A DNA stretch of 34,698 bases from Gemmatimonadota bacterium (GTDB lineage: Bacteria; Gemmatimonadota; Gemmatimonadetes; Longimicrobiales; RSA9). Under the pieces are notes generated by a model, which was given only the letters and a program-made list of their open reading frames with translations, did not search any database and was not told where the DNA came from. Of the stretch, positions 2,035-15,994 are shown piece after piece (within the stretch, counting starts at the first letter, position 1; each line of letters begins with the position of its first letter). The stretch is from contig JACQPS010000220.1 in NCBI GenBank assembly GCA_016207445.1, positions 1-34,698 on the forward strand, written 5' to 3'. The translations under genes and the position numbers were made by a program.

Positions 2035-2724
2035 TCAGGAGCCGAATACGAAGTCGAGCGACGCGATCTGCCCGTCCTGGATCACGATCTCCCGCCGCAA
2101 CTCGCCGAGCTGGGCGTGCCAGGAGTGCAGCACGTAGCGCCCGGGGGGGACGTCTCTGATCTCGAACACGCCGTCGGGCGCGGTCAGGGCGTAATACGGG
2201 TGGTCGAAGACCCAGATGGCGGCGCGCATCCACTCGTGCGCGTCGCACTCGACTTCGATCAGACCCGGTCTTGCCAGGGCACGACGGTTCTTCACCTCTA
2301 CGCCGCGGCCGGGAAGGCCGAAATTACCCACCGTGCGCCGCGTGTGGTACAGATGCACGTTGTGCATGAGGGGGTCGAGGTTGCGCAGCGTGAGGACCGC
2401 TCCGGCCTCGGCCACCTGAACGGGCGGATCGAAGTCGCACCGAACGTTGGCGAGGGTTACAGCGCTCGAGCGGGTAGCCACCGGGATCGGTCCTTCCAGG
2501 AACACCACGCTGTTGGCGACCCGGCTATTGCGTACGAGCAGGTGGCGCGATGGCACCGTTGCGCCACATACGTCCGCGTCGGTCGTGACCTTGAGCTGCT
2601 CGGGCGTCGGCGCCGGGCCGCGGTAACTGACCGTACCCTTGACCGCGCCGCGCTGCCCGGCCGCGGACGTGGCGGTCGACAGAAGCACGAGCAAGCCAAG
2701 CGCAAGCTTGGTGGGCGTTGTCAT
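2035..2724 (-). CDS. Exported cupredoxin-like / carboxypeptidase-regulatory-like domain protein
   Basis: Signal peptide; HNVH plus CDAHEWM (C-x2-H-x2-M, amicyanin-type loop); C-terminal DGVFEIRDVPPGRYVLHSWH beta-sandwich motif. Confidence 0.7.
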   Translation of the reverse strand: MTTPTKLALGLLVLLSTATSAAGQRGAVKGTVSYRGPAPTPEQLKVTTDADVCGATVPSRHLLVRNSRVANSVVFLEGPIPVATRSSAVTLANVRCDFDPPVQVAEAGAVLTLRNLDPLMHNVHLYHTRRTVGNFGLPGRGVEVKNRRALARPGLIEVECDAHEWMRAAIWVFDHPYYALTAPDGVFEIRDVPPGRYVLHSWHAQLGELRREIVIQDGQIASLDFVFGS

Positions 2725-2738
2725 TCTAGCCTCAGGGA

Positions 2739-3815
2739 TCAGAAGTACGCGTGCATTTCCAGGCTGACGCGGTCCACGTCCGTGCGGGCCTGCGGGATGT
2801 CCTGGAGCAACGTGTAGAACGCGGAGAGCTGGAGGAAAGCCACCGGGAACGCTTCCACGCCGAAGCGCGCGCGAACGCGGGCGTTCTCCGCGATTTCGGT
2901 GTCGGGGTCGAGGAAGCCGTAGGTGAGTTTCACGTTGAGCCCGCGGCGGAGCAGGACGTCGCCTTCCACGTACGCGGCGAGGCGCTCGACGCGCCCGCTG
3001 GCGGCGCCGTCGTCTCGCACGAGGTCGGCCTCGCCGAGCAGCGTGATCCGCCCCGTGCTCACGCCCGCGTATCCGCCCAGCACGGTCCGGCGACTGCCGC
3101 CGCCCTCGTTGCGCGACGCCGAGGCACCCAGCCGGAGGCGACGAAGGGCGAGCGCCACGCTGCCGGTGATTTGCTTCGCATCGTCGGCCTCCGCCGCGCC
3201 CTGGCTGCCATTGGACAGGGCCACCACGATCGTGAGTGACCCTGGCTCGATTCCCAGCTCGAGCCCCTGGTCGGGCGTATCGTAGGTAAAGCCGGTCTGC
3301 TCGCGTATGAACTCGCGGTCATCGGGCAAGCGTAGCCCGTACGGGAGCAGGAACTTTCCGGCTTTTACGTAGCCGTTCGCCGGCAGCCCTTCCAGCAGCA
3401 CGAAGGCTTCGCGGGCCGATGCGCCCGCGGGGCCGAGCGTCTCGTCGAAGTAGACGGTCAGGCGATCGGCCACGGGGCGGAGCTCGAGTTGCACGTTGGA
3501 CTCGTCGATCTCCACGGCGGCCCGTGGTGTGCTCCGTCCGATCGTGCCGAATGCCGCGACCCGAAGGTTGCCGCCGACCGCGGCAAAATCGTTGAGCGAG
3601 CGACCGCGGAACCCCGTCGGACGTAATGGGAGTCGCGTCTGCCCGTAAATATTCCCGAAGGCGTTGCGCCCGCCGCCGCCCGTGCGGTTCGTGTGGCATT
3701 GGGAGCATTGAAGCCCGGTTCGCACGGCCAGGTACGGCTCGGCCGCGGCCGCCGTTGGAATCCATTCGAGGAGGAGGGCGGCGGCGGAGAGAGTGCAGGG
3801 AATGCGCAGCCACAT
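2739..3815 (-). CDS. Monoheme cytochrome c-outer-membrane beta-barrel (porin) fusion
   Basis: ATG 3815 with GGAGG RBS. The signal peptide is followed by [16 protein letters not shown], then amphipathic beta-strand pattern and C-terminal Phe (EMHAYF). Confidence 0.7.
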   Translation of the reverse strand: [358 protein letters not shown]

Positions 3816-3829
3816 CGTCGTCCTCCGTT

Positions 3830-4264
3830 TCAATCAGGAGCGCCGGCCGCGATCCACTGCCGAATCGCGTTCAGCTCCTCCGCCGTGAGCGGCGCCAGTC
3901 CGAGCGGCATACGGCCGCCGGTGATCCCGGCACGACCCTCCAGCTTCCAGATGAGGTAGCTGGAGTCCGGCTGGCTGGGTCGGACGCGCAGCATTGCGGG
4001 TTGCTCCACGCTCGCGACGCCCACGAGGTTTGCGCGTGCCACGCCCGCGTCCAGCGCGAGGCCGAGCGGGGCCGATGCGCCCGTATGACACGCGGCGGCG
4101 CAGATCGGCGAGAAGATCCGTTCCTGGATCGAGGACAGTGTGGGCGCGAGTGGACCGGCCGGCGTCCGGACGGGCCGGCCGAACTCGTCGAGCCCGGTGC
4201 CGTCGCCGACGCAGCCGCCGACCAAGGCGAACGCGAGCAGTGGCCAGCGATGTTCCACCCTCAT
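3830..4264 (-). CDS. Lipoprotein monoheme cytochrome c (Planctomycete cytochrome c-like), CX3CH motif
   Basis: ATG 4264 overlaps the upstream stop (ATGA). Lipobox LVGGC; IFSPICAAACH; PDSSYLIWKL; RMP; IRQWIAAGA. Confidence 0.7.
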   Translation of the reverse strand: MRVEHRWPLLAFALVGGCVGDGTGLDEFGRPVRTPAGPLAPTLSSIQERIFSPICAAACHTGASAPLGLALDAGVARANLVGVASVEQPAMLRVRPSQPDSSYLIWKLEGRAGITGGRMPLGLAPLTAEELNAIRQWIAAGAPD

Positions 4265-15151: not shown

Positions 15152-15416
15152 CTCCACCCTCCTCAGTGGACGCGCCCGCGCTCTCGCATCGACTCCACAC
15201 GCCGCAACGGCGCTGGCCACTCGCTCGCGTTCGGGTTCTTACCGACTGCCGGGCGACGCGCCCGGCTGCCGCCCATTAAGAAGGTGAAGGAGGGGGCTAC
15301 TTTCGGGCCGGGGCGCCCGCGCAGTGCCGCGGGGGCCGCAATGCTCGCAACGCTCAACGGGGCAATGAGTTAGCTCGTGTGGACGCGCGCACGGGCGCGG
15401 GGACCTTCCCGCCGCC

Positions 15417-15433
15417 TGGGGCAACGTGTCCCA
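15417..15433. promoter_or_regulatory. Dyad TGGGGCA-ACG-TGTCCCA upstream of the multiheme cytochrome gene
   Basis: Near-perfect 7-3-7 inverted repeat resembling the 1904-2000 sites; CAATGAGTTA at 15363-15372. Confidence 0.35.
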
Positions 15434-15499
15434 GGCGTGTGGCGCTTGTGTGCCGGAGCGCGCGCTCCGCGCCGGCCGGTCCGCCCTCGAGAGCGGCCT

Positions 15500-15994
15500 T
15501 CAGCCGCCGCGTGCCAGGCGGGCGGCCGCGATGGCGATGACCAGGCCCAGGAGCGCGCTCATGCGCGCGAGCCAGGCAGCACGGCCGCGGAGGCGGAGCG
15601 CCTCTGGACTGTCCGGCACGGCCCGACCGGCGGCGGGCCCCCAGCGGAAGTCGTGCAACGCCTGAATCACGAGCATGCCGCCGACCGCGCCGAGCTTCCA
15701 GGCAAGGGCCCGACCATAGGGCGTGGCCCAGAAGGCGGCGCTGCCCAACACTTCCGTGCTCAGCAGTCCGCGGAAATGGAGGTTGGCCGTGCCGGTCGCG
15801 AGCAGCACGGCGAGCGCGATCCAGCCGACCAGCCGGAACCGTTCCCCCAGCCGCTTGAACAGCTCGGCGCGGAGCGCAGGGGGTTCGACCCTGCGGAGCA
15901 CGGGCGCGCCCACGAGGGCCAGGAAGAAGAGGCCGCCCAGCCACAGCAGCGCGGCCAGCAGATGGAGCGTCACATTCGCATGATAGAGCGACAT
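15500..15994 (-). CDS. CopD/DUF4149-like membrane protein
   Basis: TLHLLAALLWLGGLFF and TPYGRALAWKL motifs; four TM segments; second His in ALHDF. Confidence 0.7.
   Translation of the reverse strand: MSLYHANVTLHLLAALLWLGGLFFLALVGAPVLRRVEPPALRAELFKRLGERFRLVGWIALAVLLATGTANLHFRGLLSTEVLGSAAFWATPYGRALAWKLGAVGGMLVIQALHDFRWGPAAGRAVPDSPEALRLRGRAAWLARMSALLGLVIAIAAARLARGG

What the first reader, a model, noticed from the sequence alone, without database searches (positions are those of the whole stretch)
2035..15994. Copper/heme extracellular electron-transfer island with two cytochrome-porin fusions
Seen: a contiguous minus-strand block encoding up to 14 heme-binding motifs (12 CXXCH, 1 CX3CH, 1 CX4CH) and 4 candidate type-1 Cu sites, all on exported proteins. 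It also has two heme-bearing beta-barrels, TonB, a CopD-like protein and a dedicated sigma54 two-component system. Established: the Acidithiobacillus rus operon combines Cyc2, a diheme cytochrome and the blue-copper protein rusticyanin to carry electrons from Fe(II) inward. Inference: this is an analogous but differently built outer-membrane-to-periplasm wire in a probable Gemmatimonadota genome, with CopD supplying Cu. No terminal oxidase is in the window, so electron direction and substrate are unknown.
Basis: partly seen in the sequence, partly recalled or inferred. Interest (0 to 1): 0.88.

Follow-up and report, generated by a model that had tools for sequence, protein, structure and literature searches.

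The report
Two-porin Cyc2 copper-heme electron conduit
A groundwater Gemmatimonadota bacterium carries a regulated gene cluster for two outer-membrane cytochrome-porins of the iron-oxidase (Cyc2) type plus blue-copper and heme carriers, one porin belonging to a large, so far unnamed side branch of that family.

Summary
Minus-strand genes at 2035-15994 carry 12 CXXCH, one CX3CH and one CX4CH motif and four type-1 copper sites.

- **Barrels:** both heme-bearing proteins model as porin barrels.
- **F (6540-7970):** a Cyc2 family member by the published N-terminal signature, the PXL motif and barrel homology.
- **B (2739-3815):** lacks that signature. It is a full-length remote homologue of Cyc2 (hhalign E 3.9e-20). 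Its family has 1650 representative clusters and every name seen was "hypothetical protein".
- **Modules:** the block is built from kinase-NtrC-cupredoxin-Cyc2 (I-H-G-F), B plus a monoheme lipoprotein (C-B), and tandem cupredoxin plus diheme cytochrome (E-D). The whole order recurs in five other Gemmatimonadota loci.
- **Wider link:** cupredoxin and diheme relatives also sit beside Cyc2-motif genes in other phyla.
- **Not conserved:** CopD-like, TonB and the 174-aa membrane protein.

Most likely function: Fe(II) oxidation at the outer membrane, with electrons passed inward to oxidases encoded elsewhere. Substrate and direction are untested. Cyc2 in this phylum is already reported from surveys. 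I rate this a new variant of a known kind.

The parts
1967..1984 (-). Terminator-like hairpin plus T-run just after gene A; possible 3' end of the operon
   Evidence: The scan found 10 sites against 5.7 +/- 2.5 in shuffles, so this is weak evidence on its own. The position 51 nt after the stop of A is what makes it plausible.
2035..2724 (-). A: amicyanin-like type-1 cupredoxin with a C-terminal CarboxypepD_reg-like beta-sandwich (229 aa), with a signal-peptide-like N-terminus
   Evidence: Pfam CarboxypepD_reg E 1e-5, below the cut-off. Invariant H121 N122 C160 H163 M166. The A/G profile hits amicyanin 1sf3_A at E 2.8e-9. Lies next to B in 4 other loci.
2739..3815 (-). B: short monoheme cytochrome-porin (358 aa from ATG 3815; 364 aa from TTG 3833), a divergent branch of the Cyc2 superfamily
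   Evidence: CSQCH at residue 37. AF2 gives 16 strands, pLDDT 66.6. Foldseek finds 16-strand porins, E down to 2e-12, including OprO 4rjw. hhalign against the Cyc2 'FARKY' set: Prob 99.3, E 3.9e-20, 324 columns. No Pfam, NCBIfam or PDB sequence hit.
3830..4264 (-). C: 144-aa lipoprotein-like monoheme cytochrome with CAAACH (CX3CH); near-constant neighbour of B
   Evidence: C55, C59, H60, M119, P120 invariant in 20 rows. Motif spacing is CXXCH, CX3CH or CX4CH across relatives. Adjacent to B in 28 of 31 loci. No Pfam family at E <= 0.01.
4261..5274 (-). D: diheme class-I c-type cytochrome (337 aa)
   Evidence: Pfam Cytochrome_CBB3 in two stretches, E 2.3e-20. PDB 6h5l chain B 'Conserved hypothetical cytochrome protein', E 7.7e-52. 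D-like genes lie beside Cyc2-motif genes in 18 of 119 loci from other lineages.
5281..6243 (-). E: lipoprotein-like tandem cupredoxin (320 aa) with two type-1 Cu sites (CTIPGHKEAGM, CTLPQHAEKGM)
   Evidence: Pfam Copper-bind in two stretches, E 2.5e-10, and SoxE 29.6 bits. NCBIfam rusticyanin 35 bits and sulfocyanin 30 bits, both far below their cut-offs. Weak auracyanin hit.
6540..7970 (-). F: Cyc2-family fused monoheme cytochrome-porin (476 aa)
   Evidence: PIPAFSRKY-RTT-CSTCH-TAA-PKL fits the published Cyc2 signature. AF2 barrel pLDDT 74.3. Foldseek finds porins including OprP/OprO. The barrel alone scores 107.7 bits against an HMM of 56 Cyc2-motif proteins.
7967..8605 (-). G: paralogue of A (212 aa), always directly upstream of F
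   Evidence: Alignment A3. G-F adjacency in 10 of 10 other F loci with upstream sequence.
8605..10002 (-). H: NtrC-type sigma54-dependent response regulator
   Evidence: Pfam Response_reg, Sigma54_activat (E 7e-67) and HTH_8. Linked to G-F in 10 of 10 loci.
9987..12278 (-). I: sensor histidine kinase with periplasmic Cache-like region, HAMP, PAS, HisKA and HATPase domains
   Evidence: Linked to H-G-F in 9 of 10 loci; the tenth contig ends in H.
12368..12892 (-). J: 174-aa membrane protein of no known family; not a conserved part
   Evidence: No family found. No hit in the 37 other Gemmatimonadota loci.
12929..13720 (-). K: TonB-like protein; probably a bystander
   Evidence: TonB_C E 8e-17. 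Adjacent to the cluster only in L004. Elsewhere only short C-terminal hits at varying distance.
13802..15151 (-). L: lipoprotein-like nonaheme-motif cytochrome (8 CXXCH + CX4CH) of the c554/NrfA/OcwA/OmhA group; loosely linked
   Evidence: Pfam Cytochrome_C554, Cytochrome_C7 and Paired_CXXCH_1. PDB 6i5b E 4.8e-11 and 6qvm E 7.1e-9, named OcwA and OmhA in PMC9250108. Lies next to the F module in L032 and L156. CX4CH conserved in 3 of 3.
15500..15994 (-). M: small CopD-domain/DUF4149 membrane protein (164 aa); not a conserved part
   Evidence: Pfam CopD 49.6 bits, above the 32.1 cut-off. NCBIfam CopD 51 bits against a 195 cut-off, covering only the C-terminal half of the model. No hit in the other loci.

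Best explanation
This is a sigma54/NtrC-controlled operon (I-H-G-F-E-D-C-B-A, 12278 down to 2035) that builds an outer-membrane-to-periplasm electron conduit of the Cyc2 type.

Components:
- Two monoheme cytochrome-porins sit in the outer membrane: F, a canonical Cyc2 family member, and B, a shorter divergent relative.
- Each has an amicyanin-like blue-copper protein encoded beside it (G with F, A with B).
- B also has a small monoheme lipoprotein, C.
- A tandem cupredoxin (E) and a diheme class-I cytochrome c (D) lie between them.

Most likely working: dissolved or surface Fe(II) is oxidised at the heme of the porins. Electrons then pass through the copper and heme carriers to CuA-type heme-copper oxidases encoded elsewhere in the genome. 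This would give a heterotroph extra energy, since no RuBisCO was found.

Shown: gene content, motifs, folds, family membership of F, remote homology of B, and conserved gene order.

Inferred: that the proteins are exported, who passes electrons to whom, the inward direction, and Fe(II) as substrate.

The nonaheme cytochrome L is an occasional add-on. CopD-like M, TonB K and protein J are probably neighbours only.
For: - **F meets the published Cyc2 criteria** (Keffer 2021, passages read): a single N-terminal CXXCH, the motif P-x-F-[A/S]-R-K-Y three residues before it, PKL four residues after it, and 476 aa.
- **The motif is specific.** A DNA pattern for it pulled 119 loci, including Mariprofundus, a zetaproteobacterium, Acidithiobacillus and Leptospirillum.
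- **F's barrel is homologous to theirs.** Without the cytochrome domain it hits 15 of those 119 proteins (best 1.3e-24). It scores 107.7 bits against an HMM of 56 of them. It joins the Acidithiobacillus protein in a barrel-only similarity network.
- **B is a remote Cyc2 homologue.** Profile-profile E 3.9e-20 over 324 columns.
- **Both proteins fold as porins.** The models match, among others, OprO/OprP, the templates reported for Cyc2.
- **Gene order is conserved.** The full order recurs in L004, L007, L008, L032 and L034, which come from families f1, f4, f7 and f9. B-C recurs in 28 of 31 loci, and G-F plus H in 10 of 10.
- **The partners recur outside the phylum.** A/G-like genes lie within 8 kb of Cyc2-motif genes in 31 of 119 loci and D-like genes in 18 of 119, including Ca. 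Nitrospira defluvii.
- **The carriers are of high-potential kinds.** Type-1 copper and class-I cytochrome c suit a downhill path to oxygen (established knowledge).
- **Oxidases are available.** The genome has 4 COX1-family genes, 3 of them with a CuA-like domain next door.
- **Operon-like spacing.** Gaps of -16 to +14 nt, apart from 296 nt between F and E.
- **Habitat.** The four public runs holding the stretch are labelled groundwater metagenome. They belong to one study, which is possibly the source.
Against: - No activity, expression or localisation data exist. No RNA run was listed.
- Keffer 2021 itself warns that many distant Cyc2 homologues are unverified and may have other functions.
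- F's clade is far from the three tested proteins. In the tree it groups with Myxococcota, Acidobacteriota and Planctomycetota sequences.
- The modules usually occur apart. B is found in 6 of the 11 genomes with a strong F match, and I-H-G-F carries other partners in five loci. The window's cluster may therefore be two systems side by side.
- No oxidase is in the cluster, unlike rus.
- cbb3 CcoN, NosZ and NirK were not found above cut-off in this 91%-complete assembly.
- No sigma54 promoter was found with the consensus used.
- The N-terminal cytochrome domains are modelled poorly, with pLDDT under 50.
- D's best solved relative is the partner chain in an anammox hydroxylamine-oxidoreductase-like entry, and L belongs to a group that includes nitrite reductases. 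Both hint at nitrogen-oxide chemistry.
Confidence: 0.55

Rival explanations
1. The same hardware runs outward or on another substrate. It would be a conduit for reducing extracellular Fe(III), Mn(IV), humics or an electrode, or for oxidising Mn(II), reduced humics or a cathode rather than Fe(II).
For: - The marine Gemmatimonadota survey states that iron oxidation and reduction cannot be told apart from such annotations.
- L is related to OcwA and OmhA, listed as multiheme cytochromes of Gram-positive organisms. A search listing describes OcwA as a terminal reductase in extracellular electron transfer.
- In G190 and G224 the I-H-G-F module is followed by several 4-6-heme cytochromes.
- Cyc2 function outside a few tested proteins is unverified.
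Against: - The conserved carriers are type-1 copper proteins and class-I cytochromes, which are usually high-potential and poorly suited to reducing Fe(III) (established knowledge).
- L is present in only 2 of 10 other F loci.
- Every tested member of the Cyc2 family that I read about oxidises Fe(II).
Confidence: 0.17
2. The window holds two or three independent systems that merely lie next to each other: a regulated Cyc2 unit (I-H-G-F), a B-C(-A) unit of a different role, and an unrelated multiheme enzyme L. They would not form one wire.
For: - B-C stands alone in most of the loci fetched. D and E lie beside it in only 5 of 31.
- I-H-G-F occurs without B nearby in L155-L160.
- There is a 296-nt gap between F and E.
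- B is found in 6 of the 11 genomes with a strong F match.
Against: - The same fused order G-F-E-D-C-B-A recurs in five other loci from four family codes. This is more than chance adjacency would give.
- All genes are on one strand with tiny gaps.
- A, next to B, is a paralogue of G, next to F.
Confidence: 0.15
3. The cluster serves nitrogen-oxide chemistry. L would be a nitrite-, hydroxylamine- or NO-converting multiheme enzyme fed by D, possibly coupled to Fe(II) oxidation (nitrate-dependent type).
For: - D matches chain B of 6h5l at E 7.7e-52. That entry is named as the Kuenenia HAO-like structure.
- L belongs to the homologous group holding NrfA, ONR, HAO, OcwA and OmhA.
- In L156 a D-like gene and an L homologue lie together after F.
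Against: - L is missing from most F and B loci.
- D-like genes sit beside Cyc2-motif genes without L in 18 loci of other phyla.
- NosZ and NirK were not found above cut-off in this assembly.
- I did not test the catalytic residues of L.
Confidence: 0.08
4. Copper handling or detoxification: cupredoxins plus a CopD-like protein manage periplasmic copper rather than respiration.
For: Four copper sites and a CopD-domain protein are present. E gives weak NCBIfam CopI hits at E 6e-4 to 3e-3.
Against: - M is not conserved with the cluster and is only a half-length CopD match.
- No CopA, CopB or CopC is in the cluster.
- Two heme-porins and three cytochromes have no place in known copper-resistance systems (my knowledge).
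Confidence: 0.05

Closest known systems
Acidithiobacillus ferrooxidans rus operon (cyc2-cyc1-cup-coxBACD-rus), as described in PMC10654088 (passages)
   Same: An outer-membrane Cyc2-type cytochrome-porin is encoded together with a diheme cytochrome c and blue-copper proteins. The presumed path runs from Fe(II) outside to an oxidase inside. E's Cys-x4-His-x4-Met spacing equals that of rusticyanin as I recall it.
   Different: - No oxidase genes in the cluster.
- Two porins instead of one.
- The copper proteins are amicyanin-like with an extra beta-sandwich domain (A, G) and a tandem cupredoxin (E). None reaches the rusticyanin model (35 bits against a 146.7 cut-off).
- D's nearest solved relative is 6h5l chain B, not a c4.
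- A dedicated kinase/NtrC pair is attached.
- The host is from neutral-pH groundwater, not an acidophile.
Cyc2 of neutrophilic iron oxidisers (Cyc2PV-1) and Cyt572 of Leptospirillum (Keffer 2021, PMC8406198; review PMC13741234)
   Same: F has the same build: leader, single CXXCH, FAR-K-Y type signature (Cyt572 starts YPGFARKYNF), PXL, a porin barrel matched to OprO/OprP, and more than 400 aa.
   Different: F's clade is separate from the Mariprofundus and Acidithiobacillus sequences in my tree. I could not assign it to published Clusters 1-3 because I had no reference set. B lacks the signature and PXL, is under 365 aa, and has AEPY-x-A-V-R-x-G-x-x-C-x-x-C-H-V-N-x-T-G-G-G-x-R instead.
MtoAB / PioAB / MtrAB porin-cytochrome complexes
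   Same: They carry electrons across the outer membrane. A multiheme cytochrome (L) is nearby and gives weak DmsE-family hits.
   Different: No large (about 26-strand) separate porin is present. The DmsE and GSU2203 matches are far below cut-off (45.8 against 192; 43 against 325). Here the heme is fused to a small porin.
OcwA (6I5B) and OmhA (6QVM) multiheme cytochromes
   Same: L shares sequence with both (E 4.8e-11 and 7.1e-9) and has nine heme motifs like OcwA (9 hemes).
   Different: Those are from Gram-positive Clostridia. L looks like a periplasmic lipoprotein of a diderm and is only loosely linked to the cluster.
Chain B of PDB 6H5L (partner cytochrome in the Kuenenia stuttgartiensis HAO-like structure)
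   Same: D aligns over residues 49-240 at E 7.7e-52.
   Different: D has about 100 extra C-terminal residues and sits beside Cyc2-type genes, not beside an HAO. That chain B is the diheme partner of the octaheme enzyme is my recollection. The tool gives only 'Conserved hypothetical cytochrome protein'.

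Membership tests
Cyc2 (protein F) | Signal peptide | tested here: inconclusive
   The N-terminus has basic residues and then LLIAASILACSATTAA. I judged this by eye; no predictor was run.
Cyc2 (protein F) | Single CXXCH near the N-terminus | tested here: met
   One motif, CSTCH at residue 57. Invariant in 33 of 33 family rows.
Cyc2 (protein F) | AXPXFAR[Q/K][T/Y] signature before the heme motif (Keffer 2021) | tested here: met
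   The window has P-I-P-A-F-S-R-K-Y, which is 5 of 7 specified positions. The family consensus x-I-P-A-F-A-R-K-Y gives 6 of 7. Three residues separate Y from C, as in all 119 motif-selected proteins.
Cyc2 (protein F) | PXL four residues after CXXCH | tested here: met
   CSTCH-TAA-PKL. P65, K66 and L67 are invariant.
Cyc2 (protein F) | Fused 16-strand porin barrel | tested here: met
   AF2 barrel with pLDDT mostly 80-95 from residue 120. DSSP gives 18 strand segments, two of them very short, so 16-18 strands. Foldseek matches 16-strand porins, with OprP 2o4v at 3.2e-9.
Cyc2 (protein F) | Barrel sequence related to other Cyc2 barrels, independent of the motif used to find them | tested here: met
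   Residues 90-476 alone give 15 of 119 phmmer hits, best 1.3e-24, and 107.7 bits against the 56-sequence HMM. The barrel-only network path runs F-L121-L063-L056, where L056 is Acidithiobacillus. The Mariprofundus barrel was a singleton in that network.
Cyc2 (protein F) | Fe(II) oxidase activity | not testable with these tools
   Needs expression and an assay.
Cyc2 (protein B) | AXPXFAR[Q/K][T/Y] signature and PXL | tested here: not met
   B has [26 protein letters not shown]. None of the 116 full-length family representatives that carry an N-terminal CXXCH has F[AS]R[QK][TYN]. The stretch does align column for column with the Cyc2 motif in hhalign.
Cyc2 (protein B) | Single N-terminal CXXCH fused to a 16-strand porin | tested here: met
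   CSQCH at residue 37. 16 DSSP strands. Foldseek porins, E 2e-12, with OprO 4rjw TM 0.62. 116 of 117 full-length representatives keep CXXCH.
Cyc2 (protein B) | Length of at least 365 aa (FeGenie's rule) | tested here: not met
   358 aa from ATG, or 364 aa from the upstream TTG.
Cyc2 (protein B) | Detectable homology to Cyc2 sequences | tested here: met
   hhalign of the B family (116 sequences) against the FARKY set (56): Prob 99.3, E 3.9e-20, 324 columns. Against the FARQT set (28): N-terminal 48 columns only, E 1.6e-8. A plain HMM sees it only weakly, at 17.9 bits. phmmer hits 1 of 119.
rus-type operon | Terminal oxidase genes (coxBACD) and rusticyanin in the same operon | tested here: not met
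   No COX1 hit in the window's contig C135; the four hits are on C130, C185, C382 and C69. The rusticyanin model scores 35 bits against a 146.7 cut-off.
Sulfocyanin (protein E) | Match to the sulfocyanin equivalog model | tested here: not met
   TIGR03094 scores 30 bits against a 168.4 cut-off. Only the Pfam SoxE domain passes (29.6 against 21, one 30-residue stretch).
CopD (protein M) | Full-length match to CopD | tested here: not met
   NF033808 scores 51.2 bits against a 195 cut-off and covers model positions 148-280 of 295. The Pfam CopD domain passes (49.6 against 32.1).
MtrA/DmsE decaheme family (protein L) | Match over the family cut-off | tested here: not met
   TIGR03508 scores 45.8 against 192.2. 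NF041028 scores 43 against 325.

The most novel reading that the evidence does not exclude
B founds a fourth, unrecognised class of fused cytochrome-porins. These are short (about 350-410 aa) Cyc2 relatives with the signature AEPY-x-A-V-R-x-G-x-x-CxxCH-V-N-x-T-G-G-G-x-R.

In Gemmatimonadota they pair with a small lipoprotein cytochrome whose heme motif drifts between CX2CH, CX3CH and CX4CH. The class is widespread: 1650 representative clusters at 50% identity, with relatives labelled SAR324, Lambdaproteobacteria and Gammaproteobacteria.

Because these proteins lack the Cyc2 motif and many fall under the 365-aa limit, current iron-gene callers may miss them, so environmental potential for outer-membrane electron exchange would be undercounted.

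Linked to this, the amicyanin-like cupredoxin with a carboxypeptidase-regulatory-like domain (A/G) and the D-type diheme cytochrome may be the general periplasmic partners of Cyc2 across many phyla.
Probability: 0.4. Interest if true: 0.75.

Novelty: new variant of a known kind. Interest (0 to 1): 0.6.

Why it matters
Cyc2 is the most widely used marker for microbial iron oxidation, yet its periplasmic partners outside acidophiles are largely unknown and most homologues are untested.

This cluster offers three things that can be tested directly:
- **Candidate partners.** The blue-copper protein and the diheme cytochrome recur next to Cyc2-type genes in many phyla.
- **A dedicated sensor-regulator pair.** It could reveal what signal switches the system on.
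- **A large sister family of short cytochrome-porins.** Every public name I saw for it was 'hypothetical protein'. Motif- and length-based screens may skip it.

If these proteins do oxidise iron, then Gemmatimonadota, which are common in soils, sediments and groundwater, would take part in iron cycling through defined machinery rather than through a bare marker hit.

Tried and rejected
- **Sequence libraries.** Pfam and NCBIfam gave nothing for B, C, F and J at E <= 0.01. PDB sequence search gave nothing for B and F even at E <= 10.
- **Promoters.** A sigma54 consensus search (TGGCACG-N4-TTGCW, up to 2 mismatches) gave 3 matches against 5.2 expected, none in a useful place. I found no convincing match by eye in the F-E gap. 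The sigma70 scan found 0 sites. So the promoter that H acts on is not located.
- **Complex prediction of B with C.** Verdict 'no answer' (score 0.14, mark 0.32). This is neither for nor against binding.
- **Expression.** No RNA holder was listed for window 2035-10002.
- **Neighbours of stand-alone B-C.** The only recurrent same-strand neighbour is an aldehyde dehydrogenase, in 18 of 26 loci. I take it as conserved local context, not as part of the system.
- **MtrAB-like reading.** I considered calling the cluster an MtrAB-like porin-cytochrome system. I rejected this because there is no large porin and the decaheme matches are far below cut-off.
- **E as rusticyanin or sulfocyanin.** Rejected on model scores.
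- **Published Cyc2 Clusters 1-3.** I could not assign F to one of them, and FeGenie's own HMMs were not available.
- **Literature.** Searches for the cluster or the B family found no description: (search listings), and passages read. This does not show absence from print.

Full report
**What is there.** The window has about 69% G+C. Between 2035 and 15994 it carries thirteen minus-strand genes, which I label A to M from the 3' end.

- A (2035-2724) and G (7967-8605): paralogous 229- and 212-aa proteins.
- B (2739-3815) and F (6540-7970): proteins with one N-terminal CXXCH.
- C (3830-4264): a 144-aa lipoprotein-like protein with CAAACH.
- D (4261-5274): a diheme cytochrome c.
- E (5281-6243): a tandem cupredoxin.
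- H and I (8605-12278): an NtrC-type regulator and a Cache/HAMP/PAS histidine kinase.
- J: a membrane protein with no family.
- K: a TonB.
- L (13802-15151): a multiheme cytochrome.
- M (15500-15994): a small CopD-domain protein.

Gaps from I to A run from -16 to +14 nt, apart from 296 nt between F and E. A terminator-like hairpin follows A. The flanks are ordinary: Yip1 and PilJ/HAMP proteins on one side; ComF, GAPDH, PGK, TIM and 2-oxoacid dehydrogenase genes on the other.

**The observation checks out.** These are not chance.
- The heme cysteines and histidine are invariant in 31 of 31 B relatives and 33 of 33 F relatives.
- The CX4CH of L is kept in 3 of 3 homologues.
- E has two Copper-bind stretches.
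- A and G gave only a sub-threshold CarboxypepD_reg hit in Pfam. An alignment of 11 family members shows invariant His-Asn...Cys-x2-His-x2-Met, and its profile finds amicyanin (E 2.8e-9), pseudoazurin and plastocyanin in the PDB.

So four type-1 copper sites is a fair count. Export is my reading of the N-termini only.

**The two barrels.**
- B: AlphaFold2 on the family alignment gave 16 strands (pLDDT 66.6, pTM 0.67). The ESM Atlas's own model of B has pTM 0.84.
- F: 16-18 strand segments (pLDDT 74.3, pTM 0.74).
- In both, the N-terminal 60-115 residues are below pLDDT 50.
- Foldseek matched both to 16-strand general porins at E 1e-10 to 2e-12. The hits include OprO/OprP, the templates reported for Cyc2.
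- Both proteins end in an aromatic residue.

**F is a Cyc2.** Keffer et al. 2021 (passages) define Cyc2 as a leader, one CXXCH, a 16-strand porin, the signature AXPXFAR[Q/K][T/Y] before the heme motif and PXL four residues after it.
- F reads PIPAFSRKY-RTT-CSTCH-TAA-PKL, and its family consensus is IPAFARKY.
- To obtain real Cyc2 sequences I scanned one genome per species for a DNA pattern encoding the signature. They included Mariprofundus, a zetaproteobacterium, Acidithiobacillus, Leptospirillum, Ca. Nitrospira defluvii and several Gemmatimonadota.
- Selecting by motif makes the N-terminus circular evidence, so I tested the barrel alone. F residues 90-476 hit 15 of the 119 (best 1.3e-24). 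They score 107.7 bits against an HMM of 56 motif-selected proteins that holds no F-family member.
- In a barrel-only network F sits in a 90-node component that holds the Acidithiobacillus protein. The Mariprofundus barrel was a singleton.
- In a FastTree of 111 rows the F family is one clade (support 100). It lies inside a supported set with Myxococcota, Acidobacteriota, Planctomycetota and Eisenbacteria sequences, apart from three other Gemmatimonadota Cyc2-type lineages.

**B is a remote relative of Cyc2.** B lacks the signature and the PXL motif and is 358-364 aa, under FeGenie's 365-aa limit.
- Its family profile finds 1650 representative clusters at E <= 1e-3 (892 at 1e-10, 316 at 1e-30).
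- Of 117 full-length representatives, 116 keep an N-terminal CXXCH inside a conserved AEPY-x-A-V-R-x-G-x-x-CxxCH-V-N-x-T-G-G-G-x-R. None of those 116 has the Cyc2 signature.
- Sequence-to-sequence and HMM searches barely link B to Cyc2: 1 of 119 by phmmer and 17.9 bits by HMM.
- Profile-profile comparison does link them. B family against the FARKY set gives Prob 99.3, E 3.9e-20 over 324 columns. Against the FARQT set only the N-terminal 48 columns align (E 1.6e-8). The two Cyc2 sets against each other give 3.2e-28. The narrower A1 against A2 comparison gave only Prob 61.
- Every name I saw for B relatives was 'hypothetical protein', from Gemmatimonadota and, for more distant members, SAR324, Lambdaproteobacteria and Gammaproteobacteria MAGs.

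**Gene order elsewhere.**
- B occurs in 3 of 41 close relatives. It occurs in 35 of 401 sampled genomes of the phylum, 30 of them with strong full-length matches.
- Strong F matches occur in 11 of 401, and 6 of those 11 also have B.
- I fetched 31 B loci and 6 further F loci and mapped the window's proteins on them.
- C lies next to B in 28 of 31 loci.
- D and E join them in 5 loci: L004, L007, L008, L032 and L034, from family codes f1, f4, f7 and f9. These repeat the window's order (I-H-)G-F-E-D-C-B-A as far as their contigs reach.
- G sits directly upstream of F, and H upstream of G, in 10 of 10 other F loci that have upstream sequence. I follows in 9; the tenth contig ends.
- Where E-D-C-B-A is missing, F is followed by other redox genes: a small cupredoxin plus several 4-6-heme cytochromes in G190 and G224; a cupredoxin, a second barrel and a diheme cytochrome in G174; a barrel, a diheme cytochrome and an L homologue in G305.
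- L is linked in 2 of 10 other F loci. J and M are linked in none. K is adjacent in one.

The cluster is thus a join of three modules, and the sigma54 pair belongs to the Cyc2 module.

**A wider link.** Mapping the window's proteins on the 119 Cyc2-motif loci (each at most 8 kb) found A/G-like genes in 31 and D-like genes in 18. Typical orders are Cyc2-D-A or Cyc2-G. The hosts include Acidobacteriota, Nitrospirota (including Ca. N. defluvii), Chloroflexota, Myxococcota, Planctomycetota and Bacteroidota. These two families therefore look like general companions of Cyc2. The main texts of the two core Cyc2 papers do not mention copper proteins or gene neighbours.

**Other parts.**
- D matches chain B of PDB 6h5l at E 7.7e-52. 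That entry is the Kuenenia HAO-like structure.
- L matches 6i5b and 6qvm, which are OcwA and OmhA of the c554/NrfA/HAO group.
- C's heme motif is CXXCH in its closest relatives, CX3CH in the window alone and CX4CH in most stand-alone B-C loci. A conserved Met-Pro further on could supply the axial ligand.

**Genome context.** The 2.83-Mb assembly is 91% complete. It has four COX1-family genes, three of them beside CuA-like domains. It has no RuBisCO hit, nothing above cut-off for cbb3 CcoN, NosZ or NirK, and a single F copy. Four public runs, all from one study labelled groundwater metagenome, hold the stretch. None is RNA.

**Reading.** The best explanation is a regulated Cyc2-type conduit that takes electrons from Fe(II) at the outer membrane and hands them through blue-copper and class-I heme carriers to cytochrome c oxidases. 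It is the rus logic built from different parts. The architecture, family placement and synteny are shown. Substrate, direction and partner contacts are inferred. The rivals are outward or other-substrate electron transfer, adjacent but independent modules, nitrogen-oxide chemistry centred on L and D, and copper handling. They are weighed in their own sections.

**What is known and what is new.** Cyc2 and 'sulfocyanin' hits in Gemmatimonadota MAGs are already in print from automated iron-gene surveys. 'Gemmatimonadota may oxidise iron' is therefore not new. In the literature I could search, I did not find any of the following:
- the conserved cluster;
- the kinase-NtrC-cupredoxin-Cyc2 module;
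- the B family and its lipoprotein partner;
- the recurrence of A/G and D beside Cyc2 across phyla.

Noticed in passing
L036-L154 (e.g. L045: Cyc2-motif gene 2510-3400, D-like 1324-2007, A-like 508-1155): In 31 of 119 Cyc2-motif loci from many phyla an A/G-like cupredoxin lies within the 8-kb locus, and in 18 a D-like diheme cytochrome does. Typical orders are Cyc2-D-A or Cyc2-G. Ca. Nitrospira defluvii is among them.
   Followed up: partly
window 4087-4104 (CAAACH in C); L010-L030 C homologues: The heme-motif spacing in the C family varies: CXXCH in the closest relatives, CX3CH only in the window, and CX4CH in most stand-alone B-C loci. Whether all of these bind heme is unknown.
   Followed up: partly
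L155 2090-5768, L160 10638-14666, L159 3247-6437, L156 10641-14365: Downstream of the I-H-G-F module, other Gemmatimonadota carry different redox sets: small cupredoxins, 4-6-heme cytochromes, extra barrels ending in F, and diheme cytochromes. This suggests a swappable cargo behind a constant regulated Cyc2 core.
   Followed up: partly
L041, L114; L048, L054, L060, L072; L068: Gemmatimonadota hold at least three further, separate Cyc2-motif lineages besides the F family in the tree.
   Followed up: no
L007 12699-14507; L008 5726-7504: The tandem cupredoxin E is duplicated in tandem in two genomes. L008 also has two A-like genes in a row.
   Followed up: no
P0266 (583 aa): One B-family representative is about 200 residues longer. 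The B-like barrel starts near its residue 289, while the signature and CXXCH lie near residue 43. This may be an inserted domain or a fusion.
   Followed up: no
L012 831-2870 and 17 other loci: An aldehyde dehydrogenase gene follows B on the same strand in 18 of 26 stand-alone B-C loci. I take it as conserved local context.
   Followed up: partly
window 16880-21291 and 21956-25964: A gap-(hydrolase)-pgk-tpi run and 2-oxoacid dehydrogenase E1/E2 genes lie right beside the cluster. G+C there is 0.70-0.74 against 0.68-0.70 in the cluster.
   Followed up: no
window 136-951 (-): A 271-aa protein has a PilJ-type sensor N-terminus and a HAMP domain but no output domain. It may be a truncated or stand-alone sensor.
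   Followed up: no
window 33466-34698 (+): An ArsP_1-type predicted permease runs off the end of the window.
   Followed up: no
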